From contig CAIUMP010000056.1 in NCBI GenBank assembly GCA_903900335.1, forward strand, positions 157,020 through 221,019: a stretch of DNA of 64,000 nt. The letters are read 5' to 3'. Source of the stretch: an uncultured Ignavibacteriota bacterium (GTDB lineage Bacteria; Bacteroidota; Ignavibacteria; Palsa-1295). Each line of letters starts with the position of its first letter. Within the stretch, counting starts at the first letter, position 1. Shown here piece after piece: positions 7,040-28,364 of the stretch. The notes beneath the pieces were generated by a model, which was not told the origin of the DNA, ran no database searches, and saw nothing but the letters and a program-made list of their open reading frames with translations. The position numbers were made by a program, and so were the translations under genes.

Positions 7040-7191
7040 TACTTGCAAAACCGGATGATTGCCGTTTTCGTCCCTTGCTGATTCTCGTGTATAGACTTGG
7101 TCATGAACGCAATCGTTCGATTCCCCCCGGCTCCATCCTCCCCGCACATTTGTTCACCTCCGCGCACATTCGAATGAGCAGATAAAACCCA

Positions 7192-10848: not shown

Positions 10849-11436
10849 CTAATTTCCGCTCTCACAGCAATTCTTGTAACCACCCCCTCCATTTGGCACA
10901 TGCGATGGGTCGATGGTACAGCTACTACCATCATCGAACGTGATAGTCCAGAGGCACTTGGTGCAGGCGTGACAGAGCTCCGTCATGAACCATTCTCCCG
11001 TTGCAACTTCACCAGCGGTGGAAGTCGGATTAAATTCGACAGTAAACGCCGAAGTCGCATCGCCGCAACCGCCGAAAGCCAAATAATGTGATGTCCAGTT
11101 CGTATTGGTTCCGTTATAGCGGAGCGCGTAACAGATAGTATAGCTGCTGTCTGGCGGGGGAGTGCAGTCGATATCGATCTTCGATATCTTTTTTAGCGAA
11201 TATCGGTTCTGAAGTGAGTACTGCCTACAGCTCAAATTGGGCAGCGGGGGATCGCATACGCTCTGACAGGGAGACTCGTCGTTATGGCATTGAAAAATAA
11301 TCTGTTCGATCGGAAGCTGGGGAGGAGGAGGATCGGGCTGATTGACCGTACACGGAGTTTGTGCGTGCACGCTCTGAGTCATAGATACTGTGCTTAATAC
11401 GGCAAGGAGTATTGCAAAATACGCGGTTCGTTTCAT
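10849..11436 (-). CDS. secreted cysteine/proline-rich hypothetical protein
   Basis: It has a signal peptide (MKRTAYFAILLAVLSTVSMTQSVHAQ) and ~16 Cys in 170 mature residues. Its stop abuts the start of the downstream BNR/T9SS gene (10848/10849), so it is co-transcribed. Confidence 0.55.
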   Translation of the reverse strand: MKRTAYFAILLAVLSTVSMTQSVHAQTPCTVNQPDPPPPQLPIEQIIFQCHNDESPCQSVCDPPLPNLSCRQYSLQNRYSLKKISKIDIDCTPPPDSSYTICYALRYNGTNTNWTSHYLAFGGCGDATSAFTVEFNPTSTAGEVATGEWFMTELCHACTKCLWTITFDDGSSCTIDPSHVPNGGGGYKNCCESGN

Positions 11437-11461
11437 GGTGATTGTGTTTGAAATGTCCGAT

Positions 11462-12524
11462 TTAGAATGGAGTTAATTGCAGGAGTCCTTTATCCGTAGC
11501 TGCGAGTAGCCCGCCATCAGGTCGGTATTTCAGCGACCATACGTACCACCCGCCGAGAGTATCGATCCCTTTCCAGGAATTCCCTCGATCAAGTGATTCA
11601 TACATGCATGATTTACGCCTACCGTCATGGTTCGGACCAAAGTACCCAATGCAAATTCTTGAGGGATTCATTCGATCGATGTCAATCGCCCAGCCTGGGA
11701 ATCCATTCTTATGAGACGATAACCGCGTACTACCATACGAGAGATAGCAGTTCATACCGGTGGAATCGTAGGCGTCCGTTGTACATACAGCAAGTGTTCC
11801 GGCAACACCAGCTACTTTCGGAAGTTCTCTGCCATCGAGTCCTGTGCCACTTAGAATGGTTGTCCATGACCTCCCTGTATCATCGCTCGACAGGACGATT
11901 CCGGGTCTCGAACAACTTAAGACAAATTGCTGGCCGCGTTCTGATTCTCTGCAAATCAGTGAGCAAGCGTATGATTTGATCGCAGTGTCTGCTTTAGCTG
12001 TCGTATCCCAACTGTTACCATAGTCTTTCGACGATAGAAGACCCGGGGGATAAATGCTTGCGGCGTAAATCGTGTGACTACCTTCCTCGAAATTTAGAAT
12101 TTCACCGCCGCCAGTCCCCGTGAATACTTTGGCGAAATGATAACCTGAATCACAGCTAAGAAATAAACTTCCCATGTGACCGTTCCAGCCCGCTACGAGA
12201 ATGCTGCCGTTAGGGAGAGGTACAATTTGCTTAATAACGTGACCATTTTCTATTGTTCCAAGCGGATGCCACGTGTCCGAAGCACTATTTCTAAAGTAGA
12301 GTGTGATTCGGCTGGATGCATAGATCGGCCACTGAGCTCGTTCGTTAACCGAGAAGAAAGATTCACAATGGCGAGGAAATAGCAACTCTTGCTTGTAACC
12401 ACCCGACGCGGAAGGAGAGCGGTAACCACTGAACGAAGCTAATAGGGCGAAGCAAAAAATTGCCCCCCCCCCATCGGTGGCGGAAACTCAATAACACACG
12501 ATCAATAGAGCGACGAAACCGCAT
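11462..12524 (-). CDS. secreted BNR/Asp-box repeat protein; the 5' end is interrupted by a frameshift in a G10 (plus-strand C10) homopolymer
   Basis: The track ORF 11462..12385 starts at a TTG and lacks a signal peptide. 35 codons upstream in the same frame still encode a hydrophobic core (…GGAIFCFALLASFSG…) but hit a stop with no start. An ATG at 12524 in the +1 frame encodes MRFRRSIDRVLLSFRHRW…, a signal-peptide n-region. The two frames join inside the homopolymer at 12463..12472. The body has BNR motifs (GNSWDTT, DTGRSWTT, DRGNSWKG). Confidence 0.55.
12463..12472. repeat. C10/G10 homopolymer tract at the signal-peptide junction of the BNR gene
   Basis: It reads tgcccccccccc atcgg on the plus strand. 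Removing one G restores a continuous ORF from the ATG at 12524 through the BNR body. Confidence 0.55.
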
Positions 12525-12842
12525 GGCGACAGTCCTCAGAGCTTAGAGCATTTCTTTAACTCGTAACAATATAACACAATTTTTGACAGGCATGGTAAAA
12601 ACAACCACCCTCCCCCATATAGGAAGGGCGGCCCCCCACGGCCGCCCCACTTTGTCGAATGATGGTGCGTCACCTTTCGGAGGCGCACCCTGACAACTCC
12701 CTGCTTTCGCAAACCTTTAGTCCCTCCCCTGTGCTGGGCCGAGGAGGGACTGAGAAAGAGATCATACCGTCACCCACTGTTACCGCCCAACTGGTTTCCC
12801 GGGCAACAATCGTTCGTGGGTTGGCTGGTCATTATTCCAAAT

Positions 12843-14981
12843 TTATCTCCCTGGATTGATAATGGTGTATCCAATTCTGATCTTGTCCGACGTGCTGTAG
12901 TTGGTCACGTTCGTTGCCGTCGGAATCATCCCGACACGAATATCGAACGCGCCCGACGTTCGGTTATCGACATCGACAAAGTACTCCGCTTGTTTGGCAT
13001 CCGGCAAAATGCCGTCATCTATCTTCGACAAAACGCTCACGATGACAATGCTCGATGCCGACGTATAGCGGTTGTTGATCGTGAGCGTGCCGAGGTTCTG
13101 GAATGTCCCCGCAGTCGGTGCCGCTGTAACAAGATTTCCAGTCGCGCCAAGCGTCAGTTCTATAACGCCGCTCGGTCCTTCGGCAGAGTATGATGTTCCC
13201 GCCGTTGCACCTTCGACGACTGCTCCCACACTTGGGCTTTGCGTCGTGCGTCCCATCGCGAACTCGCCGTCGTTCAGTTGCAGCGCCACGTTCGTCTGTC
13301 CTGCGGTGGTGTTGCCGTTACCAGTTGCCAGCACACCGATCGTGCCGGTGTTCGATGAGTTGGTATTCGTCGCCGTACCCCACACCCCTACCGCTTGGTT
13401 TGCAGTACTTCCGTTTGCGTTCGCATAGACCGCGGCAACTTCGTCCGTCGTACCCGTATAGAGCGAGTGAAATTGGTGCGTTGTAGTGGTCGTGTTCACT
13501 GCCACTTGACCGCTGGAGAGTATGCGCATTCTCTCCGTATTGTTCGTACGAAAGACCAGGGCCTGTGCATCGATCGTGCCGAGATAATTCGTAGAAGAGC
13601 TCGTGCCAGTATTACCCAAGGTACTCCAATAGAGATTGGACGTCGACGTCCAAACCGGTGCAGTGGCAGAGCCCGTTGAAGCCAGCACATAGCCTGATGT
13701 TCCCGCATTACCAGCAGGCATCAAAGCGCCGGAGAAGCGAAGATTACCTACAATATCAAGCGCTTCGGCAGGAGTTTGGGTACCGATACCCACCTTCGTT
13801 CCACCGCCGGAGTTGTAATAGACAACCGAGTTGTCTTGCGTAACTGTCGCTCCGACACCAAAGGCAAGGGAGTAATTGCCTGTCACGGTATTCGTATTAC
13901 CGCCGAGGATCGTTGAATAATTACCACACGCAGTGTTATTACTTCCACCGACCACAACGGAATAGGATCCGCACGCACTATTGAATTGGCCCGCGCAAAC
14001 TGCGGAGTAAGATCCCGTTGCCGAGTTGCTGGTGCCTCCGCCAACGCTGCTGTAATCACCACTTGCCGTATCTGAGGTGCCTCCGGCCACGACAGAGGCA
14101 TAACCCGTTGCGCGATCGAACTCGCCCCACGCCACCGAACCTGCCCCGGAGGCAAGGTTGCTAAGACCATCCGTTATGGAATAGGCACCAGAGGCCGTAC
14201 AGTTCGAGCCAACGCCAACAAGAGCAAACGTACCGCTACCGCGTTTCCACAAAGTATCGACACCGCCACCCCCGACAAAGCCGAACCCCTTCCAGGAGAG
14301 ATTGCCAGATCCGTCCGTGCAAAGGACGTAGTCTGTACCATTTCCATCCTGGGGAGGAAGGATATATGTTACGCTTGCCGTTTGGACGCCAGCTTTGAAT
14401 CCCGTGTATGTCGAACCAGACCCCGAGGGCTCATAGAATCGGAGCTCCTCCGCGTTGTTGGTCGTATTCGTGAGACCCACATTTCCTCCGGCATATACGC
14501 GCATGTGTTCTGTATTATTCGTGCGAATCACGAAATCGACCGAGTCCTTTGTACCAAGAAAATTGGTGCTTGCGTTTGTACCGGAGTTTCCAAGAATAAG
14601 CCAGCCAGAGCCAAGGAATGGCACCCAAGCCGTTCCGTTATAATAATAGAACGTGGAGGGATTCGAAGCATTTACGGAGTCCGTGCAATAGACAAGAAGA
14701 CCGGTCGCCGGAGATGCGATCGCGCTGCGTTGGGATTGCGTCATTCGTGGAACCAGCAGTCCACGCGACAAACTGGTAAGATCCAAGAGTGCGCTCGCGT
14801 CCGGCGAAACGGTACCGATGCCGACGTTACCTTGCGCGTGAACTGCGGGCACCAGCGAAGCAGTAAGGGCAGCCAATAGGATGAACGTGCAGGATAACCT
14901 TCGCAAGCATCGCACGCGTGCGCCCCGTGCCGCTCGCCGACGTGGCTCCATCATTTGTTGTTTGAAACGTGTGTATTGCAT
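12843..14981 (-). CDS. large secreted repeat protein, paralog type 1 (copy A): tail-fibre-like N-terminal module, YadA-head-like G/S/N repeats, conserved C-terminal domain
   Basis: It has a signal peptide (…CTFILLAALTASLVPAVHAQ). Next comes QGNVGIGTVSPDASALLDLTS…GLLVPRMTQSQRSAIASPATGLLVYCTDS…FYYYNGTAWVPFLGSGW, and this module recurs at ~aa 390 (KVGIGTQTPAEALDIVGN…). A 14-residue-period Gly/Ser/Asn repeat block follows (ASGDYSSVGGGTSNSATGSYSAVCAGQFNSACGSYSVVVGGSNNTACGNYSTILGG). The C-terminus is …YFVDVDNRTSGAFDIRVGMIPTATNVTNYSTSDKIRIGYTIINPGR. It is ~75% identical to copy C. Confidence 0.75.
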   Translation of the reverse strand: MQYTRFKQQMMEPRRRAARGARVRCLRRLSCTFILLAALTASLVPAVHAQGNVGIGTVSPDASALLDLTSLSRGLLVPRMTQSQRSAIASPATGLLVYCTDSVNASNPSTFYYYNGTAWVPFLGSGWLILGNSGTNASTNFLGTKDSVDFVIRTNNTEHMRVYAGGNVGLTNTTNNAEELRFYEPSGSGSTYTGFKAGVQTASVTYILPPQDGNGTDYVLCTDGSGNLSWKGFGFVGGGGVDTLWKRGSGTFALVGVGSNCTASGAYSITDGLSNLASGAGSVAWGEFDRATGYASVVAGGTSDTASGDYSSVGGGTSNSATGSYSAVCAGQFNSACGSYSVVVGGSNNTACGNYSTILGGNTNTVTGNYSLAFGVGATVTQDNSVVYYNSGGGTKVGIGTQTPAEALDIVGNLRFSGALMPAGNAGTSGYVLASTGSATAPVWTSTSNLYWSTLGNTGTSSSTNYLGTIDAQALVFRTNNTERMRILSSGQVAVNTTTTTHQFHSLYTGTTDEVAAVYANANGSTANQAVGVWGTATNTNSSNTGTIGVLATGNGNTTAGQTNVALQLNDGEFAMGRTTQSPSVGAVVEGATAGTSYSAEGPSGVIELTLGATGNLVTAAPTAGTFQNLGTLTINNRYTSASSIVIVSVLSKIDDGILPDAKQAEYFVDVDNRTSGAFDIRVGMIPTATNVTNYSTSDKIRIGYTIINPGR

Positions 14982-14986
14982 TCGGG

Positions 14987-17158
14987 CTACCTTCCTGCAT
15001 TAATGACGACATACCCAACCTGGATATTGTCCGATCCCTGATATCCCCCAGCATCGGTCACGAACGGGATCATCCCGATTCGCACCGTGCACGACCCTGC
15101 CGTTCGGCTTTCGACATTCACCTTATAGATGGAGTTCTTGGGGTCAGGAGAACCACCACCATTTATTTTGCCGACCACTCCAATCTGGATGATACTACTG
15201 GAAGTGATGTAGCGATTGTTGATCGTGACTGTGCCCAGATCCTGGAACACACCCGCCGTCGGGGGATTGGAAGAAAGATCCGTTTGAAGCGAAAGCTGAA
15301 TCACTCCCGATGGTCCCTGCTGTGAATAGAGCGTTCCTGCGGCTGCAGATCCCGTGACCGTACCGGCCGATGGTGCTTCCGTTGTTCTACCCATTGCGAA
15401 TTCACCCTGGCTGATCTGCAAAGCAACGTTGGTTGTCCCAGTTGTTACATTCCCGTTGCCCGTCGCGAGTACGGCAACGGTGCCAGTGTTCGATGTGCTT
15501 GTGTTATCGGCTCTGCCCCATATGCCAACCGACTGCGAGGCTGTGCTACCCGATGCAACGCCATAGATCGCTGCTGATTCATCCACAGTGCCAGTATACA
15601 GTGACGAGACCTGATGCGTAGTTGATGTGGTATTAATACCGAGGAGACCGGAGGAGCCGATGCGCGCACGCCCTGTGGCGGTCGTACGGATTGCGAAGTC
15701 CTGCGCGTCCGTCGTTCCAATGAAGTTCGTTACTGGGTTGCTCCCGAACGTGCCCGTAAGACCCCAGTTCGTCGATGGAATAGCAATCGTCCCCCACGTC
15801 GGCGGACTCCCACTCCCGGCTGATTTGAGATATTGCCCCGAACTTCCCCCGGAGCCATTTGGCTTGATCGCAAGGGAAAAACGTAAGTTACCAACGACAT
15901 CCGTCGCCTCTGCTGGGCTCGCTGTCATGATTCCCATTTTCACGGTGGGTGGAGTCGGAGGAAAAAAAATGAGCTGATTGCTTCCAGCAGGATGGAGATT
16001 CGCACCAAAGATCAGGTTATCCTGACCAGCCGTGCTGTTGTTTGCTCCGTTAATGATCACCGCCTCCGAGCCGCTGATGCTGTTTGAGCTACCATTCAGA
16101 ACCGTCGCATTGGTCCCTGAAGTAGAGTTGCTCGATCCACCGCCTACATAGGAGTTGTTGCCTGAAGAGTTATTCAGCCGCCCCCCTCGTACAGCACCGC
16201 TCTGCGAAGAGACCGTATTGTTGGAGCCTCCGGAGATTGTGCCGTCCTTGCCACTGGTTCGATTGCTATCACCGAACGCTACTGAACCTTGACCTGATGC
16301 CGTGCAATACTCCGTCGCAGAAATGGCATACTTTCCGCTGCTCTTGTTGCCAATACCATCACCTTCGAGTGCGTCTGATCCGCTTCCGCGATTCCACAAC
16401 GTTACCGAGCCGCCACCACCGATCGTTGCGAACGTGTGCCAGCTCATCGTGCCAAGGCTATCGACAAGCGCGGCGTTCGGGCTACCATCTCCTGGAGGAA
16501 GCAGGTAGTGAATAGTCGAGGTCTGTACACCTGCTTTGAATCCGGCAAAGAGAGAGCCGAGGCCCGAAGCTTCATAAAAGCGGAGTGCACCTGCTACATT
16601 TTGTGTGTTGGTAAGACCAATATCACCTCCATTAAAGAAGCGCATGCGCTCATACCCATTCGTCTTCTGCACAACATCCTGCGCATCCTTCGTGCCGAGA
16701 AAATTTGTGGAGGCGCTCGTTCCTGCGTCACCCGTCAGCGACCAACCCGAACCGACAAGTGGCGTCCAGATCGAACCGTTGTAATAGTAGAAATTGGTGT
16801 AGGTATTATCAAAGACGAAGTCACTGGTAGCCGGGGTGGTGATCGCCTGCATCTGTGCATCGGTCACGCGTGGCATGAGGAAGCCTTGCGTGGTTGACTC
16901 TAAATGCAAGAGCGCAGAGTTGTTCGCTGCGGCAGTTCCGATGGAGACATTTTGGGCACGTATTCCGGATGGGCACGTAAGTACCCACAGGAGAAGGCTA
17001 ACAACGATAATTGCCGATCCGAATCGTGCACGAGCAAATCGACACAACGGTTCGGGCACTGCTGAGTCAGTGCAATTACATTTGGATGACGGATCACCCA
17101 CGAATGCATCCAGAGCAATGGATGGCATGACGTATCCTGATGATGTTTTGGCAAACAA
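14987..17158 (-). CDS. large secreted repeat protein, paralog type 2 (copy B)
   Basis: It has a signal peptide (…FGSAIIVVSLLLWVLTCPSGIRAQ). Then come NVSIGTAAANNSALLHLESTTQGFLMPRVTDAQMQAITTPATSDFVFDNTYTNFYYYNGSIWTPLVGSGWSLTGDAGTSASTNFLGTKD, G/S/N-rich beta-roll-like repeats, and a C-terminus …YKVNVESRTAGSCTVRIGMIPFVTDAGGYQGSDNIQVGYVVINAGR. Its stop lies 5 nt from the start of copy A. Confidence 0.75.
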   Translation of the reverse strand: MFAKTSSGYVMPSIALDAFVGDPSSKCNCTDSAVPEPLCRFARARFGSAIIVVSLLLWVLTCPSGIRAQNVSIGTAAANNSALLHLESTTQGFLMPRVTDAQMQAITTPATSDFVFDNTYTNFYYYNGSIWTPLVGSGWSLTGDAGTSASTNFLGTKDAQDVVQKTNGYERMRFFNGGDIGLTNTQNVAGALRFYEASGLGSLFAGFKAGVQTSTIHYLLPPGDGSPNAALVDSLGTMSWHTFATIGGGGSVTLWNRGSGSDALEGDGIGNKSSGKYAISATEYCTASGQGSVAFGDSNRTSGKDGTISGGSNNTVSSQSGAVRGGRLNNSSGNNSYVGGGSSNSTSGTNATVLNGSSNSISGSEAVIINGANNSTAGQDNLIFGANLHPAGSNQLIFFPPTPPTVKMGIMTASPAEATDVVGNLRFSLAIKPNGSGGSSGQYLKSAGSGSPPTWGTIAIPSTNWGLTGTFGSNPVTNFIGTTDAQDFAIRTTATGRARIGSSGLLGINTTSTTHQVSSLYTGTVDESAAIYGVASGSTASQSVGIWGRADNTSTSNTGTVAVLATGNGNVTTGTTNVALQISQGEFAMGRTTEAPSAGTVTGSAAAGTLYSQQGPSGVIQLSLQTDLSSNPPTAGVFQDLGTVTINNRYITSSSIIQIGVVGKINGGGSPDPKNSIYKVNVESRTAGSCTVRIGMIPFVTDAGGYQGSDNIQVGYVVINAGR

Positions 17159-17541
17159 GATTGGTTCTGTAAACCAATCACAATAATTGAAGTCCGGTGG
17201 GGTTAAAGCGATACTAAGCGCGGAGTGGGGACCGGGCTCGCCTTATCGGACGTTGCAAACTATGAGCTATGTATAAGACAAGTCCAGCGGCAGAATTAGT
17301 GCTAGTGAGCTTGTTACGAATGAAGATTTCGGAAGAATTATTAAGTTTCATAGCGACACCAGTCCGCCATTGTTCCACATCTGTACACTCACATTGCAAA
17401 GTGGAATCCTTCTGTGCCACAGGAGCGCCGGGGCGAGAGGTTATCAGACACAGTCCATCATCGAAGTGGGTCTGATCAAACTCTCAGAAAGTATCTCTAA
17501 CAGGGTTCTGAACTAATCGCACGCACTCGCCTTGCCTCGAT

Positions 17542-19653
17542 CTATCTACCCGCATTGATGATCGTGTATCCGATCCTGATTTTGTCAGAGGTAGTATAGT
17601 TGGATACGTTCGTGGTCGTAGGAATCATCCCGACTCGAATGTCGAACGAACCCGTCGTTCGATTATCCACATCGACAAAGTATGTCGCTTGTTTGCAATC
17701 GGGCGCGACACCGTCATCCGTTTTCGTGAGCACGCTGACGATCACAATACTCGTCGAGGAAGTGTAGCGGTTGTTGATGGTAAGCGTGCCTAGATTTTGA
17801 AAGACACCAGATGTTGGTGCTGCTGTGACGAGGTTACCAGTCGCACCAAGCGTGAGTTCGATCACGCCACTTGGTCCTTGTGCGGAGTATGCTGTCCCTG
17901 CTGTTGCTCCTTCGACGACCGTGCCGACACTCGGCGTCTCGGTTGTGCGGCCCATTGCAAACTCACCATCGTTGATTTGTAACGCAACGTTCGTTTGTCC
18001 CGCGGTTGTGTTTCCATTACCTGTCGCAAGCACGCCTATCGTTCCAGTGTTCGTCGCTCCTGTGTTAGAAGCGGATCCCCACAACCCAATGACTTGATTG
18101 GTCGAAGCCGCATTCGCGTTCCCATAGATCGCTGCAACCTCGTCAGTTGTACCGGTATAGACCGAGTGCAATTGATGAGAAGTCGTCGTCGTGTTGATCG
18201 CAACTTGACCTGTTGAAAGTATTCGGAGACGCTCAGTATTGTTCGTTCGAAAGACCAGCGGTTGTGCGTCCGAGGTACCGAGATAATTCGTAGCAGGGGC
18301 CGTCCCGGTGTTACCGAGGATCGTCCAATACAGGTTCGATGGTTGCACCCAACTCGGTGCACTACTTGCTCCGGTTGATGCTAGCACATACCCAGATGTC
18401 CCGGCGAGGTTATTCGGCATCAAAGCACCGGTGAATTTTACATTGCCCGAGACATCCAGCGCTTCAGTCGGAGTTGTCTGCCCAATTCCCAAACGTGTCG
18501 AACCCGTGGAGTGGTAGAAAACGATGCTGTTATCCTGTGTAACCGTTGCGCCGACACCAAAGACACAATCGTATGTACCGGATGCCGTGTTTGTGTTTCC
18601 TCCGAGGATCACGGAATAATCACCCGATGCCGAGTTAGAATACCCTCCGGCAACGATAGCATACATCCCGCACGCTCGATTATTCTTTCCCCCACTGACG
18701 ACCGAGTAATCTCCGCACGCATCATTTTGAAGTCCGCCAGCACAAACACTGTATGAGCCTGTTGCCGAGTCCTGCTGCCCGCCAGAGACCGTTGCACCAG
18801 AATCAGAAGCGAAGCTCTGATTTCCCCACGCGATGGAGAAGGCGCCGGATGCAGTGCTGTGATATCCACCAGCCATTCCATAATTGCCGGATGCCGTATT
18901 GCCTGTCCCGACTCCTTCAAGCGCATACAGTCCGCTGCCACGCCGCCACAACGTGTCAACACCACCACCACCCGACGTTCCAAATGATTTCCATTCCAGG
19001 TTACCGAATCCATCTGTGCAGAGAACCTGCGAACTCGTACCATCGGAGATCGGCAGTGTGTACGTCACATTTCCTGCCTGGACACCTGCTTTGAACCCTG
19101 TGTAATTCGTACCAGAAGAGGAAGGCTCGTAGAACCGTAACTCTTCGGCAGTGTTGTTGGAATTTATCAGGCCTACATTGCCTGCGGCGTACACTCGAAG
19201 TCGCTCTGTATTGTTAGTTCGGACCACAAAATCCTGCGAGTCTTTTGTACCAAGAAAATTGGTACTCGCCGTCGTTCCAGAATTCCCTGTTAACAACCAA
19301 CCGGAACCAAGGAACGGCACCCACGCTGAGCCGGTGTAATAATAGAATGTGGATGGATACGAGGAGCTGACCGAATCCGTACAGAAGACAAGTAATCCCG
19401 TTGCGGGTGTGGAGATCGCATTTCGTTGCGTCTGTGTCATGCGTGGAACCAGCAACCCGCGTGAAACACTGGTGAGGTCCAGGAGTGCGCTCGCATCCGG
19501 CGCTGTAGTGCCGATACCAACGTTACCTTGGGCAAACGCGGAATGTACACCGAACAGGTTGAGATTGAAAATGAAGACAATCGATGCTATCGCAATCGTG
19601 AATCGCATCGGATTCACCCGCCAAATCGCCTTGATGTTGAATAGATAATTCAT
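17542..19653 (-). CDS. large secreted repeat protein, paralog type 1 (copy C)
   Basis: It is near-collinear with copy A (QGNVGIGTTAPDASALLDLTSVSRGLLVPRMTQTQRNAISTPATGLLVFCTDS… to …YFVDVDNRTTGSFDIRVGMIPTTTNVSNYTTSDKIRIGYTIINAGR). The probable start is the internal Met at ~19608 (MRFTIAIASIVFIFNLNLFGVHSAFAQ). Confidence 0.75.
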   Translation of the reverse strand: MNYLFNIKAIWRVNPMRFTIAIASIVFIFNLNLFGVHSAFAQGNVGIGTTAPDASALLDLTSVSRGLLVPRMTQTQRNAISTPATGLLVFCTDSVSSSYPSTFYYYTGSAWVPFLGSGWLLTGNSGTTASTNFLGTKDSQDFVVRTNNTERLRVYAAGNVGLINSNNTAEELRFYEPSSSGTNYTGFKAGVQAGNVTYTLPISDGTSSQVLCTDGFGNLEWKSFGTSGGGGVDTLWRRGSGLYALEGVGTGNTASGNYGMAGGYHSTASGAFSIAWGNQSFASDSGATVSGGQQDSATGSYSVCAGGLQNDACGDYSVVSGGKNNRACGMYAIVAGGYSNSASGDYSVILGGNTNTASGTYDCVFGVGATVTQDNSIVFYHSTGSTRLGIGQTTPTEALDVSGNVKFTGALMPNNLAGTSGYVLASTGASSAPSWVQPSNLYWTILGNTGTAPATNYLGTSDAQPLVFRTNNTERLRILSTGQVAINTTTTSHQLHSVYTGTTDEVAAIYGNANAASTNQVIGLWGSASNTGATNTGTIGVLATGNGNTTAGQTNVALQINDGEFAMGRTTETPSVGTVVEGATAGTAYSAQGPSGVIELTLGATGNLVTAAPTSGVFQNLGTLTINNRYTSSTSIVIVSVLTKTDDGVAPDCKQATYFVDVDNRTTGSFDIRVGMIPTTTNVSNYTTSDKIRIGYTIINAGR

Positions 19654-19662
19654 GATGGATCG

Positions 19663-21756
19663 TCAGCGGCCAGGATTGAGAATGACATAGGCAAGTCGAA
19701 TATAATCGGATCCCTGATACGCGCTAAGATCCGTAACAAATGGGATCATGCCGATACGAAGTACACAGGAGCCAACCGAACGGCTATCGACATCCACCTT
19801 ATAGACCGAATTTTTGGGATCAGGCGAGCCCCCGCCATTCGTTTTCGCGACAATACCTGCAACGATAATGCTGCTCGCAGTAATGTAGCGGTTATTGATC
19901 GTCACGGTGCCCAAATTTTGAAAAACGCCGATTGTCGGGGCAACCGCGCTGAGATCCGTTTGTAACGAAAGCTGGATCACACCAGACGGCCCCTGTGCTG
20001 TGTACAGCGTCCCTGCAGTTGCTGACTCGAGCACAGTACCGACCGACGGTGTCTGAGTGGTGCGGCCCATCGTAAGCTCGCCTTGTGAGATTTGAGCCGC
20101 AGCGTTCGTCGTACCCGTGGTCGCATTTCCATTTCCGGTTGCAAGCACAGCAACCGTGCCCGTGTTCGTCGCTCCGGTGTTACCAACCCTTCCCCACGCC
20201 CCAATGGCTTGTGTCGCAGTCGAACCAGATGCGTTTCCATAGGCTCCCGCCGTTTCATCTGTTGTTGTTGTAATGATGGAAGAGAGTTGAGCCGTCGATA
20301 TGCTTGTATTGACCCCAATCTGACCGGCAGAAAGAATCCGACACCGAACGGAGGCGTTCGTTCGAACCACCAGATCTTGCGCGTCCGTCGTGCCGACAAA
20401 ATTGGTGGCCGGGTTCATCCCAGAAGTGCCCGTCAAACCCCAATTGTTAGAGGAGAACGTTGCTGAGCCCCATGTAGGCACAACGCCAGAGCCTGCAGAC
20501 AAGAGATATTGTCCACTTGAGCCTCCCGCATTGTTCGGCTTCAGCGAACCAGAGAATCGAAGGTTACCCGCAACATCGAGCATCTGCGAGGGAGCTTGCG
20601 TCCCAATTCCAAATCGAGTGGTGTTCGTCCCCGGCGTTTTGAAGACAATAAACTTCTGCGTACCGACCGAGATGCCAGAGCCATAGCACATCTCATAATT
20701 TCCACCGATCGAGTTTGTCGTTCCGCCAAGAATGGTGCAGTTTGTTGCGCTGATCGAATTCCCGTTGCCACCAAGGATAGCGGAATAATCTCCCTGCGGA
20801 GAATTTGATTTGCCACCGTTTGCATTCGTGGCGGTGGCCTGCACTGAGTTATTCTGCCCACCACCCGTGACATCGTCATTACCGGTTGAGGAATTCGAGC
20901 TACCCCCCGAAACGGTACCGGCTGTTCCGGAAACGGAAATGGAGTTACCGAACCCTATATCATAATTGCCCGTAACGCTTGAGCTAATACCCGCCGCGAT
21001 GGCATACGGCGCCGATGAACTATTACTGGCTCCAACACCATTCTCTCCTCCCGCCGCAGAGCCACGCGACCACAAAGTTGTTGATCCACCTCCACCAAAT
21101 GTGGAATAGATATGCCAGCTGAGGTTAGCTGTTCCATCCGTGATCATCGCAGCATTTGTCGTACCGTCCGCTGTTGGAAGGACATAGTGGACGTTGCCCG
21201 CTTGAGGACCGGCCTTTATGGCTGTGTAATATGTGCCAGAGCCAGATGGCTCATAAAAGAGAAGCCGCCCCGCTGTGTTTGTACTGTTGGTAAGACCGAT
21301 GTCGCCGGCACTGTAAAATCTCAACCGCTCTATGGCATTGGTCCTCTGCACGACATCAACAGCGTCTTTGCTGCCTAGAAAGTTGGTGGATGGGCTCGTG
21401 CCAGCATCACCTGTTAACGACCAACCACTGCCGACCATTGGGGTCCAATAAGACCCTGTGTAGTAGTAGAAATTGGTGTAGGTGCTGTCATAAACCAAGT
21501 CTCCGGTAGCAGGTGTGGTGATTGTCCGCATTTGCGCGTCGGTCATGCGCGGTATGAGAAGACCCATGGCTGTCGACCCAAGATGCAGGAGCGCTGAACT
21601 CGCCGCGCTGGTCGTGCCGATCGATACATTTTGCGCACGCAGATCGATAGTCCATACTCCTGGTGAAAGGAGTAGGATCAAAGCGATTCTGATGGCGACA
21701 CAGCGCCCAAGAAGCCGCCTTCTCTCCCGTGGGGAGGGCAGAAGGGTAGTGTTCAT
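19663..21756 (-). CDS. large secreted repeat protein, paralog type 2 (copy D)
   Basis: It is collinear with copy B (QNVSIGTTSAASSALLHLGSTAMGLLIPRMTDAQMRTITTPATGDLVYDSTYTNFYYYTGSYWTPMVGSGWSLTGDAGTSPSTNFLGSKD… to …YKVDVDSRSVGSCVLRIGMIPFVTDLSAYQGSDYIRLAYVILNPGR). Its stop lies 9 nt from the start of copy C. Confidence 0.75.
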   Translation of the reverse strand: MNTTLLPSPRERRRLLGRCVAIRIALILLLSPGVWTIDLRAQNVSIGTTSAASSALLHLGSTAMGLLIPRMTDAQMRTITTPATGDLVYDSTYTNFYYYTGSYWTPMVGSGWSLTGDAGTSPSTNFLGSKDAVDVVQRTNAIERLRFYSAGDIGLTNSTNTAGRLLFYEPSGSGTYYTAIKAGPQAGNVHYVLPTADGTTNAAMITDGTANLSWHIYSTFGGGGSTTLWSRGSAAGGENGVGASNSSSAPYAIAAGISSSVTGNYDIGFGNSISVSGTAGTVSGGSSNSSTGNDDVTGGGQNNSVQATATNANGGKSNSPQGDYSAILGGNGNSISATNCTILGGTTNSIGGNYEMCYGSGISVGTQKFIVFKTPGTNTTRFGIGTQAPSQMLDVAGNLRFSGSLKPNNAGGSSGQYLLSAGSGVVPTWGSATFSSNNWGLTGTSGMNPATNFVGTTDAQDLVVRTNASVRCRILSAGQIGVNTSISTAQLSSIITTTTDETAGAYGNASGSTATQAIGAWGRVGNTGATNTGTVAVLATGNGNATTGTTNAAAQISQGELTMGRTTQTPSVGTVLESATAGTLYTAQGPSGVIQLSLQTDLSAVAPTIGVFQNLGTVTINNRYITASSIIVAGIVAKTNGGGSPDPKNSVYKVDVDSRSVGSCVLRIGMIPFVTDLSAYQGSDYIRLAYVILNPGR

Positions 21757-22111: not shown

Positions 22112-23803
22112 CTACCTATTCACTACGAAACTCTCCCTCATTCTCATGCCGCCCGAAAGTAGTACCACGCTGTAGTTACCAGAGGCCAGATGTGAAGCAC
22201 TGTAGCTGATCGTATGAACCCCAGCCGCGAGATTTTCATCCACGAGCTTCTCCACCAATCTCCCACTGACGTCGTACAGCCCAGCCGAGACATAAGCGTC
22301 CGTTGGCATACCAAATTCAATGTGAGCTGTCTCAACGGCCGGATTTGGATAGATCGAAATCGTGAGCGAGCCAGGTATTGCCTTCTCGCTGTAGTCTACA
22401 GTTTGCGAAGCAGCATGCGTTCGGATCCCATTTCGGTCAATTTGATAGAGGTCGTACACGTACCGACCCGTTGCCAAATGTGCGTCGTCGGTTGTTTCAT
22501 AATTCGCACCCCACGGAGATTTTGCTTGCAATGCGGTATCGCTCTCGAAGCTCCTAATCAGCACGGGTGCAGCCACAGTTTCAGCATCCGTTAATGACAG
22601 GACGGGATGTCGCTCGATCTCGAATCCAAGGTTCTGAATTTCGCTATAAGTATTCCAGTTCAACTTAACCGTGTTACCCACTTGACGAGCTGTGAACTTA
22701 CCCATCTCAACCGGCAGAGAGTTGTCCGAAGTCGTTGAAGCTAGCGTGAATGGTCGGTTGATGATCGAGGTGCCATACTTAGCAGATACCACGGTTGCCG
22801 ATTCGATCCATCCTGAGTTGTACGTCGCACCGGGCGACAACGCGCTGACGCCGGCCGTCACCCACGCGGGGGTTGGTCCAGGTACAACAGGGGCAAGTGT
22901 ATCCCATCGGCCAACTACCAGGCCGGAAGGGGTTGGCATCCATGCAGGCACATAATCTCCCGGAATCCAATAAAGGCGTAGGATCGCATCAGCACCACCA
23001 GAGACGATGTCCGCGTGCCAGTATTGTATTGTGCTCACGGCCACAAGCGGCGTCTGGATGCTCGTGGTGTTCACATACTTGGAGCAGAAGTACTGAGTGC
23101 GATAGGTCGTCGCCGCAGAGCTTGAAGGGGTGATAGCACACGTGTTCCCACGGCTTGCCTTACCGACGGGAAACCAGAAGCGGTTCGTCGAATTCATGTC
23201 CTTCTCGCACGGCCCATCCACATAGCTGATCGCGGGCGAAACGGGAAGCCCAGCATTGTTGACCCAATTGCCATTCGTCGTGAAGTTCAGCACGTTGGTC
23301 TGTGTAGTGTAGCAAACGCCATTTGTGAAATAGCAATTGCTGTCAACGATCTCCTTCTGTGTCAGCGTCTTCGTCCCGCCATTAGTAAATTGCAGATCGT
23401 AGAAAGTCGTGACGACCGCCCCGCCCACGTTTTGATTCGATGCGCCATTGAGATTGACGGTCCCCGTCTTGCGAACGAACGTACCATCGTTCGTAAAATT
23501 GCCACCGATGTTGTACCACCCCGAGCCTCCGGCCGTTGCAGCGCTATTGTTCGTGAAGTCTGTGGTTATCGTTACCGTGCCAGAGTCGTCGATCGAGCCT
23601 GTTTGATTCTGATACGCACCGTTGACCTGCGTGTAAGAGCCGACCTTTGTGACGATGGTTGCTCCCTTGTTGATCATGAGCTGTGCATGTGCCGTGGACT
23701 CGGTTAGGGCGAGCATAGTAAGCAACGCAAAAACTGCCAAACGAGAAGCTCGTTCAGCACCACGAAAAACGTGGAGCGCATGCAATGAGAACATCGCCGG
23801 CAA
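22112..23803 (-). CDS. secreted protein with a T9SS C-terminal sorting domain
   Basis: It has a signal peptide (…RLAVFALLTMLALTESTAHAQ). The C-terminus …LTISIYPNPAVETAHIEFGMPTDAYVSAGLYDVSGRLVEKLV…GNYSVVLLSGGMRMRESFVVNR is a textbook Por_Secre_tail pattern. Its C-terminal half shares motifs (GFEIERH…YDLYQID) with the next gene. Confidence 0.65.
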   Translation of the reverse strand: MPAMFSLHALHVFRGAERASRLAVFALLTMLALTESTAHAQLMINKGATIVTKVGSYTQVNGAYQNQTGSIDDSGTVTITTDFTNNSAATAGGSGWYNIGGNFTNDGTFVRKTGTVNLNGASNQNVGGAVVTTFYDLQFTNGGTKTLTQKEIVDSNCYFTNGVCYTTQTNVLNFTTNGNWVNNAGLPVSPAISYVDGPCEKDMNSTNRFWFPVGKASRGNTCAITPSSSAATTYRTQYFCSKYVNTTSIQTPLVAVSTIQYWHADIVSGGADAILRLYWIPGDYVPAWMPTPSGLVVGRWDTLAPVVPGPTPAWVTAGVSALSPGATYNSGWIESATVVSAKYGTSIINRPFTLASTTSDNSLPVEMGKFTARQVGNTVKLNWNTYSEIQNLGFEIERHPVLSLTDAETVAAPVLIRSFESDTALQAKSPWGANYETTDDAHLATGRYVYDLYQIDRNGIRTHAASQTVDYSEKAIPGSLTISIYPNPAVETAHIEFGMPTDAYVSAGLYDVSGRLVEKLVDENLAAGVHTISYSASHLASGNYSVVLLSGGMRMRESFVVNR

Positions 23804-23997: not shown

Positions 23998-26025
23998 TCA
24001 CTCTCCGACCCATAGCTTCCGGCTTAACCGCCCGCCATTCCACTCTATCCGAACCCAATAGACACCGGGAAGCAGGCCGGGATTACAAGCGATCTGCTTT
24101 TCGAATTTCCGATCCAGGATCTGTCGACCAACGGCATCCGTTACGATCATTCGGGCGCTGGTGGTTGCCGTTCCGATAATGGACCCCTTTAGTATTCCCG
24201 CAAAATAATCAACTCTCCCTACCGAAGACGTAGCTGTATCCGAATTTGCAGATACGACCCTAGAACCGAGCAATGTGTGGACCCCGTCCCCGGACACCTC
24301 ATAAAGGTCATACTGGGATGTCCCGGCGGTGGGAGCATTGTCATTGAAACCGTATTCAGCACCATACCGCGAATGCCCAAGCAGGGCGCTATCCTGAAGG
24401 TAGCTAGCAATTAGTTTTTCTGAATCTGTACAATGCCGCTTGATCTCAAATCCTAGGAGATTCGATTCAGAGGCTGTTTGCCAGGAGATCCTCACCGCAT
24501 TCGTTATCCGTTGGGCGATAAGACTCTGGAGTTCAATGGGATTCGGGGAATCCGTATACCCTCCAGACAACATCCAATAAAATCCGCCACTGTCATTCGG
24601 AAATCCCAGACATGTTGTGTCCCAGGTGTAGGACAGACTTTGAGGCGATACGTTCGTAATACCGCTGAACGACCACGAGCGACCACGATTGCGCGAGCGC
24701 CAAAAATGCTGTTCGCCGGGATCGGCAGCATTAAGCTCTGTGCAGTGCAGCTGGAATGTCATCTCATTGGGATCCCCTTGTTGCGGACCAGCACCAGGCG
24801 TGATCTGAAAATATCGAAGAGCCGGATTGTTCTCCGGTTTTGCGCCCGGTGGCATATATCCGTTCGTACGGACGACACGTGTCCGCCCTAGATAAGGATT
24901 CGTCCCGCTCCGGATACTGAGACCCAGGCCGTAGAAATCGTCGGAAGGATTCGAGCCATCGAGCGTGCGAGCAAACTCCGAATAAACTCGGCCTATCAGA
25001 TGTCCGCCGCACGGCATACCTTCCTCAACCAGTCGGGTAAGAACATCGAGAGAGTCACACACACTATCAGAAATGAATCGAACGCTTAGCGTAGAACCGT
25101 TAGGAATGATCACTGTCCCGAGTTGTGATGGACCTGTCCAGTGACTTACGAATCCTGGATTTGATGCGCCATTGAATATCCAGTGATCCGTACCAAGCGA
25201 CTGCATTCCACATCCGCGCAACCCGGCCCCCGGCCCGCCTGATTCACCTTGATTTTCATTGATGACATCACCTGAGATTGTGATCACCTGCGGATCGTAT
25301 CCCCTCACTCCGCTGACTCTTGCGCTCGGAAGTATACTCGACCCAAACCCTATGCGAAGCGTGCCCCGAACACCAACCGGATTTGATCGAAATGATGCGT
25401 CAACATTTGTTAACGTGAGATTCCCGTAGGTGTGAGTGAGCAGATTATTCGCGAGGTAGGACACATCGATGAGGTCGGCGTTCGCAGAATAGTATTCGAA
25501 CGTGCTTTGAAGGTTGCACACAAAAAGCGGTGCGTGGAGTGAATCGAAGAGGCTATCAGCGACAACAGGCAGTAGTGCTTTGGTTCGAAAGAGCGCTCCA
25601 CTATCAAGTTCAATCATCCGCCTCTTTGAGAGCCTGTCACTGAAGACAAACCAACCCGACCCTGCATCAAGCGCGCCACGGATGCTGATTGCAGTATCCA
25701 CACTATTCGTATCTCCAACGAGATAGATGATATTCGTATCAACAGCGAGTCTTCCTTCCACAAATAGCTTCGCCAAAGGTGCTGTGGATGTATCGAGAAA
25801 AACTGAGTCTTGTTGAGAGATGATGACGGTGTCGCCAGCTTTGGGGATTATGCCATCTTGCCAAACGAGTGTGTCACTCCATTTGCCACTAGCGATGGTT
25901 CTGCGCTGCGCGAAGATATTGGATGCGAAGAGGGTACTCCCAAGTGTCAGGAGTATCGCTACGGAACAAAAAATCCTCTTGTAGTTGATTTCTCGCACGA
26001 GTAGGCAAACGAGTGCGAAGGGCAA
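23998..26025 (-). CDS. secreted protein, probable T9SS cargo
   Basis: It has a signal peptide (…FCSVAILLTLGSTLFASNIFAQ). It shares the 'LLGFEIKRH…YDLYEVSGDG' module with 22112..23803. The C-terminal …DAVGRQILDRKF…LPGVYWVRIEWNGGRLSRKLWVGE loosely fits a T9SS C-terminal domain. Confidence 0.5.
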   Translation of the reverse strand: MPFALVCLLVREINYKRIFCSVAILLTLGSTLFASNIFAQRRTIASGKWSDTLVWQDGIIPKAGDTVIISQQDSVFLDTSTAPLAKLFVEGRLAVDTNIIYLVGDTNSVDTAISIRGALDAGSGWFVFSDRLSKRRMIELDSGALFRTKALLPVVADSLFDSLHAPLFVCNLQSTFEYYSANADLIDVSYLANNLLTHTYGNLTLTNVDASFRSNPVGVRGTLRIGFGSSILPSARVSGVRGYDPQVITISGDVINENQGESGGPGAGLRGCGMQSLGTDHWIFNGASNPGFVSHWTGPSQLGTVIIPNGSTLSVRFISDSVCDSLDVLTRLVEEGMPCGGHLIGRVYSEFARTLDGSNPSDDFYGLGLSIRSGTNPYLGRTRVVRTNGYMPPGAKPENNPALRYFQITPGAGPQQGDPNEMTFQLHCTELNAADPGEQHFWRSRNRGRSWSFSGITNVSPQSLSYTWDTTCLGFPNDSGGFYWMLSGGYTDSPNPIELQSLIAQRITNAVRISWQTASESNLLGFEIKRHCTDSEKLIASYLQDSALLGHSRYGAEYGFNDNAPTAGTSQYDLYEVSGDGVHTLLGSRVVSANSDTATSSVGRVDYFAGILKGSIIGTATTSARMIVTDAVGRQILDRKFEKQIACNPGLLPGVYWVRIEWNGGRLSRKLWVGE

Positions 26026-27381: not shown

Positions 27382-27543
27382 GCTGTGGCTTAAAAAGAGG
27401 TTTTGATTCGTTGAGTCACGCAGCTTAGAAGTTGCGAGTACGAGCCCTGTAAAACATCACGAACGAAGTATTGCTCCCCGTTAGGTGCCCGTCAGTCAAG
27501 ATTCATGAGCATTCAGAATTCTCCACGCGCTTCTCTTCTATGC

Positions 27544-27782
27544 TTCTTTTTAAATAGAGATTTAAATACTAATAATTGATTTAAAGGGTGTGGACATGTG
27601 GAGAACACAAACCTCGTTCACGAATCACCGTGATAGACCGCATCTCGCTTCGCGTTCACATCTTATCCATCTGTTGGCTAACATGTGGCTAACTGGTGTT
27701 AGACGAACAGTCCACATATCCCTCCACAGTCTTCCTGTGGTCTGGCTTCCTCTATCCACAGCTTGTGATTTCTTATCCAGAC
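27544..27782. other. predicted chromosomal replication origin (oriC): AT-rich DNA-unwinding element plus a DnaA-box cluster
   Basis: A ~43-nt AT-rich stretch (ttctttttaaatagagatttaaatactaataattgatttaaag) lies in an otherwise GC-rich genome. It is followed within ~200 nt by at least 5 sites with 8/9 match to TTATCCACA in either orientation. These are tgtggagaa, TTATCCATC at 27663, tgtggctaa at 27685, CTATCCACA at 27752 and TTATCCAGA at 27772. Weaker sites lie among them. The region is ~120 nt from the duplicated dnaA 3' end. Confidence 0.6.
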
Positions 27783-27842
27783 GTTAGTGAGGAAAGGTTT
27801 TTGAAGTGGCGAGTTATCATGCAGAGTATGGTATAACTATTT

Positions 27843-27875
27843 AAAACTAAAAAGCCGCGGTACTCCAGCGGCTTT
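27843..27875 (-). terminator. intrinsic terminator (minus strand), probably the original dnaA terminator
   Basis: The minus strand reads AAAGCCGC-tggagtacc-GCGGCTTT followed by TTAGTTTTAAA. This is an 8-bp GC-rich stem with a 9-nt loop and a T-rich tail. It lies immediately downstream of the dnaA 3'-end duplicate at 27902..28023. Confidence 0.55.
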
Positions 27876-27901
27876 CGTTAGGTATTCGAGCTGTTATTGT
27901 G

Positions 27902-28023
27902 TCACTGCATCATATCAAACTGCCTCCGCAGCTCATCTATCTTCGTCAGCAGCGCCGGGTTGTGCTTCATGTCGTCGAGCACGGTTTGCACGGCGTGGAT
28001 GACGGTGGATTGGTCGCGTCCGC
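27902..28023 (-). pseudogene. duplicated 3' end of dnaA (last ~40 codons plus stop), copy 1 of a ~120-nt diverged direct repeat
   Basis: Its minus-strand translation …SGRDQSTVIHAVQTVLDDMKHNPALLTKIDELRRQFDMMQ* is identical over the last 36 residues to the true dnaA C-terminus at 28767... There are ~8 nucleotide differences versus copy 2 (28764..28885). There is no upstream gene body, and it abuts the stop of the DUF5615 gene. Confidence 0.65.
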
Positions 28024-28359: not shown

Positions 28360-28364
28360 GCGAC

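What the first reader, a model, noticed from the sequence alone, without database searches (positions are those of the whole stretch)
12843..21756. Unusual composite architecture of the paralog family: tail-fibre-like 'NVGIGT' module (twice per protein), YadA-head-like 14-residue beta-roll repeats, and a conserved C-terminal domain that is not a T9SS tag
Each protein begins with QGNVGIGT…ALLDL…GLLVPRMT.QR.AI..PATGLLV…FYYYNG.AW.P, a motif family I associate with phage tail-fibre-like or Bacteroidetes 'tail fiber domain' proteins. The module repeats mid-protein (KVGIGTQTPAEALDIVGN…SNLYWS/TLGNTGT…NYLGT.DAQ.LVFRTNNTERMRI). The centre is built from G/S/N repeats of the YadA-head (Hep_Hag-like) type: …SGDYSSVGGGTSNSATGSYSAVCAGQFNSACGSYSVVVGGSNNTACGNYSTILGG…. 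All four end in a shared ~55-aa domain (…Y.V.V..R..GS…RIGMIP..T…Y..SD.I..GY.I.N.GR) rather than the T9SS C-terminal domain used by the neighbouring cargo genes. It is therefore unclear how they are exported and anchored. The C-terminal domain may be a new sorting or oligomerisation module.
Basis: partly seen in the sequence, partly recalled or inferred. Interest (0 to 1): 0.5.

Follow-up and report, generated by a model that had tools for sequence, protein, structure and literature searches.

The report
Phage-like surface fibres with new cap
Four neighbouring genes of a Kapaibacteria-type bacterium encode long, probably three-stranded surface fibres built from phage-tail-fibre and adhesin parts and closed by a lineage-specific end domain that looks like a sugar-binding fibre tip rather than a secretion tag; how they reach the cell surface is unknown.

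The parts
12843..14981 (-). Fibre gene A (type 1, 712 aa)
   Evidence: ORF; identical to database protein P0001, which carries PF26696.
14987..17158 (-). Fibre gene B (type 2, 723 aa as listed; the true start is probably further downstream)
   Evidence: It lies 5 nt upstream of A.
17542..19653 (-). Fibre gene C (type 1, 703 aa)
   Evidence: It is 72% identical to A.
19663..21756 (-). Fibre gene D (type 2, 697 aa)
   Evidence: It lies 9 nt upstream of C and is 55% identical to B.
14835..14981 (-). Gene A signal peptide (residues 1-49), with predicted cleavage VHA|QGN
   Evidence: Read from the sequence. A-Q before NVGIGT is nearly invariant in the family alignment. Modelled as a helix at residues 24-41. 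The cleavage site is inferred.
14607..14834 (-). Gene A N1 module (residues 50-125), Pfam PTL_trimer. Copies in the other genes: C 19303-19533, D 21427-21630, B 16748-16951
   Evidence: pLDDT 72-91. The same module forms the C-terminal tip of phage tail proteins.
14277..14606 (-). Gene A N2 shaft module (residues 126-235; LGNSGT..TNFLGT.D..RTNN.ER.R)
   Evidence: The unit is reused many times in other family members.
13806..14276 (-). Gene A YadA/UspA1-type head (residues 236-392, 15-residue beta-roll repeats). Copies: C 18508-18972, D 20629-21096, B 15962-16423
   Evidence: PDB 3pr7 at E=2e-16 and 2.3e-24 with a profile. Foldseek matches to CbpF, BpaC, UspA1 and BoaA. pLDDT 95-98. Period 15 residues.
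13482..13805 (-). Gene A M1+M2 (residues 393-500): degenerate second copy of the N1 start plus the N2 start
   Evidence: Internal alignment 53-227 against 397-557, E=1e-16. M2 matches Bdellovibrio Bd3182 (8ojn) at E=5.8e-5.
13182..13481 (-). Gene A conserved neck before the cap (residues 501-600; TTDE.AA...NQ.IG.WG...NTGTIGVLATGNGNT..QTN.ALQ.NDGEF.MGRTTE)
   Evidence: Low confidence when modelled as a monomer. The profile matches the Bd2133 fibre 8ond at E=4.4e-4.
12846..13181 (-). Gene A C-terminal beta-sandwich cap (residues 601-712). The 142-aa cap query (A residues 571-712) maps in the other genes to C 17545-17970, D 19666-20085, B 14990-15409
22112..23803 (-). Conserved upstream neighbour: 563-aa secreted protein with a T9SS type-A C-terminal domain
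   Evidence: Por_Secre_tail at E=3.6e-7. Orthologs sit directly upstream of the fibre genes in at least 10 genomes.
23998..26025 (-). Conserved upstream neighbour: G8-domain protein (675 aa)
   Evidence: synteny.
12603..12633 (-). Terminator-like hairpin (13 pairs, followed by a T-run) about 210 nt downstream of gene A
   Evidence: consensus scan only.

Best explanation
The four genes encode cell-surface adhesive fibres of the 'mosaic adhesive trimer' (MAT) type, here in a Kapaibacteria-type genome (Bacteroidota/Ignavibacteriota-related). Proposed mechanism, step by step. (1) A Sec signal peptide is removed before a conserved Gln (the signal peptide is visible in the sequence; the cleavage is inferred). 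(2) The mature N-terminus is a roughly 75-aa PTL_trimer knob. The same module forms the distal tip of phage tail fibres. I infer that it binds a component of the cell envelope: in phages the host's envelope, and here the producer's own, so that it holds the fibre on the cell. (3) A modular shaft follows. Its N2/M2 units are homologous to the Bdellovibrio MAT shaft. Inserted in it is a YadA/UspA1-type beta-roll head, which is the most variable module and so the likeliest specificity determinant (inferred). (4) The fibre ends in a conserved roughly 210-aa block: a neck plus a six-to-seven-strand beta-sandwich. This block folds on its own, probably nucleates and registers the trimer from the C-terminus, and, being H-type-lectin-like, may bind a glycan at the distal end (inferred from fold resemblance and from the analogy with the non-S74 caps of MAT fibres). 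It is not a T9SS sorting tag. How the fibre crosses the outer membrane is unknown, as it is for the Bdellovibrio MAT fibres.
Confidence: 0.55

Rival explanations
1. Reverse polarity. The conserved C-terminal cap is the end nearest the cell: a lectin-like domain that binds the producer's own surface glycan or an outer-membrane protein and so anchors every fibre type of the lineage. The N-terminal PTL knob, a phage receptor-binding tip, would then be the distal adhesin, as the N-terminal head is distal in trimeric autotransporters.
For: The cap is the most conserved region, is shared by fibres with unrelated N-termini, is always terminal and is lineage-restricted. It is absent from viral contigs, whereas N1 and N2 are common there. 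N1 occupies the distal-tip position in phage tail proteins. In Bacteroidota, surface proteins are typically attached through their C-terminal end (established knowledge of T9SS cargo).
Against: The homologous MAT fibres expose their C-termini. S74-ending relatives in the same family imply that the C-terminus is the folding and distal end. N1 follows the signal peptide directly in nearly all cellular members, which is the pattern of a conserved base.
Confidence: 0.15
2. The C-terminal block is a new class of secretion or sorting signal, for example a third type of T9SS C-terminal domain or the signal of an unknown pathway, that is recognised at the outer membrane and possibly removed.
For: It ends at the protein's last residue in every complete carrier, with a conserved tail ..(I/V)(I/V)N(P/K/A)(G/S)(R/K). 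The neighbours' real CTDs also end in a hydrophobic strand followed by a terminal R/K. It is a beta-sandwich of CTD-like size. It occurs in a T9SS-bearing lineage, in a conserved locus next to T9SS cargo genes. No other export signal is visible.
Confidence: 0.12
3. The genes are structural tail-fibre genes of a prophage, tailocin or contractile injection system rather than cellular adhesins.
For: N1 and N2 modules are frequent in viral contigs. The cap resembles phage and pyocin fibre tips.
Against: All four proteins have signal peptides. There are no PHROG matches. There are no phage, sheath, tube or baseplate genes in 64 kb. The locus is chromosomal and syntenic between housekeeping genes in at least 10 genomes. 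The cap is absent from viral contigs.
Confidence: 0.03
4. They are classical trimeric autotransporter adhesins (type Vc secretion).
For: They have a YadA/UspA1-type head. JGI annotated one ortholog as 'trimeric autotransporter adhesin'.
Against: There is no YadA_anchor match. The C-terminus is modelled as a soluble beta-sandwich, not a four-strand barrel segment. No coiled-coil stalk is predicted; the only helices are the signal peptide and residues 82-86.
Confidence: 0.01

Closest known systems
Bdellovibrio bacteriovorus MAT (mosaic adhesive trimer) fibres, e.g. Bd3182, Bd2133, Bd2439 (Caulton et al. 2024, PMC10769870)
   Same: Both have a signal peptide, then a conserved N-terminal domain, then a modular beta-rich shaft, then either an S74 domain or an independently folding non-S74 cap. 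The shaft unit GT.DA..L.F.TNNT.RM.I...G.V.V.TT.PT is sequence-homologous. In both, the C-terminal third runs beta-helix then beta-sandwich. In both, the way the fibre reaches and stays on the surface is unknown.
   Different: The phylum is different and no predatory lifestyle is known. A YadA-type head is inserted in the shaft. The cap is a different domain and is conserved rather than swapped. The N-terminal domain here is PTL_trimer, and its homology to the roughly 130-aa MAT N-domain is untested. The genes come as conserved type2->type1 pairs next to T9SS cargo genes.
Trimeric autotransporter adhesins (YadA, UspA1, BoaA, BpaC, CbpF)
   Same: The left-handed beta-roll head made of G/S/N-rich repeats is shared, with significant sequence and fold matches.
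   Different: There is no C-terminal membrane anchor, no coiled-coil stalk or neck, and the head lies mid-protein.
Distal domains of phage tail fibres and tailspikes and of R-type pyocin fibres; H-type lectins (Helix pomatia agglutinin, discoidin I, SLL-2)
   Different: The cap has no sequence similarity to them. It has no relative in IMG/VR. The genes are cellular and encode signal peptides. Sugar binding is untested.
T9SS cargo proteins with type A (Por_Secre_tail) or type B C-terminal domains
   Same: Both have an N-terminal signal peptide and a C-terminal beta-sandwich that ends at the last residue with a basic terminus. The fibre genes sit in the same locus as real T9SS cargo.
   Different: No HMM or profile-profile match. 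The cap occurs only on fibre-like proteins and comes with a conserved neck.
Pfam PF26696 (PTL_trimer)
   Same: The precomputed annotation of protein A (P0001) and of nearly all relatives carries this family. It maps to N1, because fragments lacking N1 lack the hit.
   Different: The family covers only about 75 of the roughly 700 residues. The local Pfam copy does not contain it, and I found no publication that uses the name, so its curated description is unknown to me.

Membership tests
MAT (mosaic adhesive trimer) fibre superfamily | A signal peptide immediately followed by a conserved N-terminal beta-rich domain | tested here: inconclusive
   The layout is met: signal peptide, then N1/N2, with A-Q before NVGIGT nearly invariant. 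Homology of N1/N2 to the MAT N-domain could not be tested, because the attempt to fetch full-length Bd proteins failed.
MAT (mosaic adhesive trimer) fibre superfamily | A beta-helix/prism shaft homologous to those of Bd3182 and Bd2133 | tested here: met
   Profile against PDB sequences: 8ojn E=8.8e-6, 8ond E=4.4e-4. Single sequence: E=5.8e-5, with a clear shared motif.
MAT (mosaic adhesive trimer) fibre superfamily | A C-terminal S74 chaperone-protease, or an independently folding non-S74 cap | tested here: met
   No S74 domain. The cap is modelled confidently on its own (pLDDT 85-97). Relatives with S74 exist in the same family.
MAT (mosaic adhesive trimer) fibre superfamily | Trimeric assembly along the whole fibre, and display on the cell surface | not testable with these tools
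   Only monomer predictions were possible. The low confidence of the shaft and neck as monomers is compatible with an intertwined oligomer but does not show it.
Trimeric autotransporter adhesin (type Vc) | YadA-like head repeats | tested here: met
   Pfam YadA_head itself is below threshold.
Trimeric autotransporter adhesin (type Vc) | A C-terminal YadA_anchor beta-barrel segment preceded by a coiled coil | tested here: not met
   No Pfam match at E<=1. The C-terminus is modelled as a soluble sandwich, and no stalk helices are predicted.
T9SS cargo | Type A CTD (Por_Secre_tail / TIGR04183) | tested here: not met
   No Pfam or NCBIfam hit at E<=1. hhalign against the neighbours' CTDs gives 0.25% probability.
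T9SS cargo | Type B CTD (TIGR04131 / CHU_C), usually with an adjacent PorP/SprF-like gene | tested here: not met
   No NCBIfam or Pfam hit. No PorP/SprF-like gene was found among the window's ORFs.
Phage tail fibre with intramolecular chaperone | Peptidase_S74 domain with the SDxxxK motif at the C-terminus, in a phage gene context | tested here: not met
   No PF13884 hit. 'TSDKIRI' does not fit SDxxxK (sequence). No PHROG matches. The context is chromosomal.
H-type lectin | A six-stranded beta-sandwich that forms trimers and binds GalNAc/Gal at protomer interfaces | tested here: inconclusive
Pfam PF26696 PTL_trimer | A match to the family HMM | tested here: met
   Precomputed hit on P0001, which is identical to protein A, and on the paralogs P0012 and P0061 from the same contig. 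It could not be recomputed because the local Pfam copy lacks the model.

The most novel reading that the evidence does not exclude
The roughly 210-aa C-terminal block would be a previously unrecognised, Kapaibacteria-specific sorting and anchoring module. It would deliver trimeric fibres of any length (300 to about 4,000 aa) to the cell surface and hold them there, either by a new branch of T9SS recognition or by an unknown route. The N-terminal PTL knob would be a domesticated phage receptor-binding tip used as the distal adhesin. This would define a new class of surface-fibre export in a T9SS phylum.
Probability: 0.2. Interest if true: 0.7.

Novelty: new variant of a known kind. Interest (0 to 1): 0.4.

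Why it matters
It extends the MAT type of surface fibre, so far described only in Bdellovibrio-like predators, to a Bacteroidota-related lineage. It also shows that such fibres are assembled from parts shared with phage tail fibres (the PTL knob and the shaft unit) and with trimeric autotransporters (the YadA-type head). It identifies a new, rare C-terminal domain family with no Pfam model. It gives a concrete and testable case of an unsolved problem: how CTD-less, anchor-less trimeric fibres cross and stay on the outer membrane. The finding that the same small knob sits at the tip of phage tail fibres and at the base of cellular fibres suggests a shared envelope ligand, and that ligand could be identified experimentally.

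Tried and rejected
- **Curated libraries on all four proteins.** Pfam, NCBIfam and PHROGs gave only sub-threshold beta-roll hits (LbR_Ice_bind, YadA_head). An ice-binding function was rejected because this is just the shared beta-roll repeat.
- **Cap against the PDB.** A sequence-profile search found nothing.
- **The name 'PF26696' / 'PTL_trimer' / 'PTL'.** Literature searches found nothing.
- **AFDB50 fold search.** The library was not available.
- **MAT paper supplements.** Searched for Bacteroidota-type relatives; nothing found.
- **Full-length Bdellovibrio MAT proteins.** An attempt to fetch them with a 56-aa Bd3182 fragment found no candidates, so homology of the N-domains stays untested.
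- **Pfam on other cap carriers and on the alternative N-terminal domain of the giant fibres.** No families.
- **Antibody heavy-chain hits to the neck region.** E of 1e-3 to 1e-2. Judged chance resemblance of a ..TxEDTAVYYCAR..WGQGT-like string.
- **Prophage or tailocin origin.** Rejected on context.
- **Classical autotransporter.** Rejected because the anchor is missing.
- **Sigma-70 promoter scan.** Not above chance and not suited to this phylum.


Full report
**What is there.** The interval holds four same-strand (minus) ORFs: A 12843-14981, B 14987-17158, C 17542-19653 and D 19663-21756, of 697-723 aa. They align over their whole length. They fall into two types. A and C are 72% identical, B and D 55%, and cross-type pairs 48-52%. 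In transcription order they read D(type 2)-9 nt-C(type 1)-383 nt-B(type 2)-5 nt-A(type 1), which is a duplicated two-gene cassette. A strong terminator-like hairpin follows A at 12603-12633. None of the modules occurs elsewhere in the 64-kb window.

**Anatomy (numbering of A).**
- Residues 1-49 are a signal peptide ending VHA|QGN. An Ala-Gln junction before NVGIGT is nearly invariant in the family. This fits the known preference of Bacteroidota for Gln at the mature N-terminus, which is general knowledge and was not tested here.
- N1 (50-125) carries the GLLVPRMT...PATGLLV...FYYYNG..W motif.
- N2 (126-235) carries LGNSGT..TNFLGT.D..RTNN.ER.R.
- Residues 236-392 are G/S/N-rich repeats.
- M1/M2 (393-500) restart with VGIGT and the N2 motif.
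- Residues 501-600 form a conserved G/N/T-rich neck.
- Residues 601-712 are the terminal domain.

However, the PRMT...FYYYNG core is deleted in the second copy. The central repeats have a period of 15 residues. They are homologous to the solved head of the Moraxella adhesin UspA1, at E=2e-16 with one sequence and 2.3e-24 with a profile. The full-length AlphaFold model shows this head at pLDDT 95-98, and Foldseek returns the heads of CbpF, BpaC, UspA1 and BoaA.

**The N-terminal module.** Curated libraries available locally give nothing above threshold. The precomputed annotation of protein A (P0001) and of almost all of its 1,869 detected relatives carries Pfam PF26696, named PTL_trimer. Fragments that lack N1 lack this hit, so PF26696 corresponds to N1. 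I found no paper that uses the name.

A scan of IMG/VR found at least 172 stretches encoding the module. In many of them the roughly 70-aa module is the very C-terminus of a 300-2,000-aa ORF. The L051 ORF matches PHROG 'minor tail protein', 'tail protein' and 'tail fiber protein' families. The L082 ORF lies between major-tail and tail-fibre genes and a DNA polymerase.

**The C-terminal block.** The conserved unit is far larger than 55 aa. In 46 orthologs the last 223 residues are 68% identical per column on average, with invariant E, W, G, Q, G-R and G-P-S-G positions. AlphaFold folds the last roughly 110 residues into a six-to-seven-strand beta-sandwich at pLDDT 85-97, both in a 223-aa construct and in the full-length protein. 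The neck is uncertain as a monomer.

The block has no sequence relative in the PDB. It does not match T9SS type A or B domains, Peptidase_S74 or YadA_anchor. A profile-profile comparison with the real type-A CTDs of the adjacent cargo gene and its orthologs gives 0.25% probability.

- The C-terminal domains of several tailspikes.

No T9SS CTD appears among the 60 best hits. Against predicted viral structures the best hits are uncharacterised Caudovirales proteins (E about 1e-4) and tail-fibre C-terminal domains.

**Distribution of the cap.** A profile of the last 142 aa, searched against 1.84 billion representative proteins, finds only 70 clusters. In every complete hit the domain ends at the protein's last residue. 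Carriers range from about 300 to 3,989 aa. They include giant repetitive fibres with an unrelated N-terminal domain (AQ.P.TISYQG...), many N2 and YadA-type units, and the same neck plus cap ending ..(I/V)(I/V)N(P/K/A)(G/S)(R/K). None of those tested has a Pfam family, and none looks like an enzyme.

Among GTDB species representatives the cap occurs at 29 loci. All are in Kapaibacteria, Ignavibacteriota or 'Bacteroidetes' MAGs, apart from two bins labelled alphaproteobacterial. Several genomes have multiple loci. It has no relative in viral contigs. Within the fibres, the head is the most variable module (64% among type-1 orthologs, 35% between types). The neck and cap are the most conserved (73-74%).

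**Context.** In at least ten genomes the order is: G8-domain protein, then a 531-567-aa protein with a T9SS type-A CTD, then (type-2 fibre, type-1 fibre) once or more, then on the other strand a Fer4/CCG protein. The window has the same order, with three extra genes (9415-12385) between A and the Fer4/CCG gene. The rest of the window is ordinary chromosome: dnaA, bacA, a pst transporter and fatty-acid metabolism. It contains no T9SS machinery, usher, barrel partner or phage genes.

**Relation to known systems.** The closest described system is the MAT superfamily of Bdellovibrio. These are signal-peptide proteins of about 600-1,000 aa with an invariant N-terminal domain proposed to sit at the cell surface, an intertwined trimeric shaft, and either an S74 chaperone-protease or an independently folding cap (TNF-like, C-type lectin, or new beta-sandwiches). 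Their C-termini were shown to be exposed on the predator surface (PMC10769870).

The resemblance is more than conceptual. The family profile matches Bd3182 (8ojn) at E=8.8e-6 and Bd2133 (8ond) at E=4.4e-4 in the M2/neck region. The single-sequence alignment shows the shared unit GT.DA..L.F.TNNT.RM.I...G.V.V.TT.PT. Other members of the PTL family end in Peptidase_S74, which mirrors the S74/non-S74 split. I could not test whether the MAT N-domain is homologous to N1/N2. In the searchable literature, MAT fibres are discussed only for Bdellovibrio-like predators.

**Most likely mechanism.** These are adhesive surface fibres. After Sec export, the N-terminal PTL knob forms the base, the shaft carries a variable YadA-type head that probably sets specificity, and the conserved neck-plus-sandwich closes the fibre. 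The cap probably nucleates trimer folding from the C-terminus, as C-terminal domains do in phage fibres. Being lectin-like, it may also bind a glycan. Because the same knob is the distal, receptor-side tip of phage tail fibres, I infer that it binds an envelope component. In the cellular fibres that binding would retain the fibre on the producer. This is the role the MAT authors proposed for their N-domain.

What is shown: the architecture, the homologies, the distribution, the fold prediction, and the negative tests for known tags. What is inferred: trimer formation, surface location, polarity, ligand binding and self-anchoring. The step across the outer membrane is unexplained.

**Rivals.** The cap is highly conserved, shared between different fibres, restricted to one lineage, absent from phages and strictly terminal. 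These properties also fit a cell-proximal anchor (reverse polarity, 0.15) or a new sorting signal (0.12). Against them stand its restriction to fibre-like proteins, its seamless fusion to a shaft-like neck, the lack of any CTD similarity, and the exposed C-termini of MAT fibres. Prophage/tailocin origin and classical autotransporter readings are effectively excluded.

**Verdict.** The composite architecture is a new variant of a recently described kind (MAT-like fibres) rather than something categorically new. The C-terminal domain is a new, rare family of uncertain role. Interest is moderate at 0.4.

Noticed in passing
L051:5346-8216, L082:3927-8228, L065, L069, L076, L092, L105, L113 (IMG/VR loci): The roughly 70-aa N1/PTL module (ASA.L...S.T.GFL.PRMT..QR.AI..PATGL.VYQTD...W) is the extreme C-terminus of large phage tail proteins. 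In other viral contigs it is internal, or it follows a signal peptide. This suggests a shared envelope ligand for phage tips and for the bases of cellular fibres.
   Followed up: partly
window 12843-21756; loci L001, L007-L013, L020, L021, L025: The fibre genes come as a conserved type-2 then type-1 pair, separated by 2-10 nt, directly after a T9SS-CTD gene. The window has the pair duplicated, and other genomes have three to five genes. Whether the two types form separate fibres or mixed trimers is unknown.
   Followed up: partly
P0134 (3989 aa), P0130 (3392 aa), P0136 (2532 aa) and others; loci L015-L018, L024: Giant repetitive fibres at other loci of the same lineage carry the same neck and cap. 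They start with an unrelated N-terminal domain (AQ.P.TISYQG...LYD...G.F...GS...PYAL) that has no Pfam family.
   Followed up: partly
window 27382-31072: dnaA (28767-30629, minus strand) lies beside the cumulative GC-skew minimum at about 26-28 kb. Four DnaA-box-like sites cluster within 185 bp (27597-27781), and a perfect box lies at 30930. The fibre locus therefore probably sits about 6-15 kb from the replication origin. The box count for the whole window is not above chance.
   Followed up: partly
window 5108-6196 (+) and 6230-7147 (-): A TIR-domain protein lies next to a DUF2971 protein. This may be a small defence-type gene pair.
   Followed up: no
window 9415-12385 (-): Three genes lie between fibre gene A and the Fer4/CCG gene: two BNR/Sortilin-like proteins, one ending in a T9SS-CTD-like tail, and a Cys-rich 195-aa secreted protein. 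Their homologs are not detected at that position in the syntenic loci of other genomes, which suggests a local insertion.
   Followed up: partly
L019 (CAYVVD010000003.1) and L027 (CAYVWR010000007.1): Two cap-bearing loci come from MAGs labelled Hyphomicrobiales and Alphaproteobacteria. L019 also has an N1 module and a distant match (28% identity) to the T9SS-CTD neighbour protein nearby, so mis-binning seems more likely than horizontal transfer.
   Followed up: no
window 13272-13670 (protein A residues about 490-560): The neck string TTDEVAAVYANA...VGVWGTAT draws weak hits (E 1e-3 to 1e-2) to antibody heavy-chain framework 3/4 (..EDTAVYYCAR..WGQGT). This is judged a chance resemblance.
   Followed up: no
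window 14987-17158 (gene B start): The listed TTG start gives a long, atypical N-terminal extension before the signal peptide. The true start is probably further downstream, and the 383-nt C-B spacer may hold a promoter.
   Followed up: no
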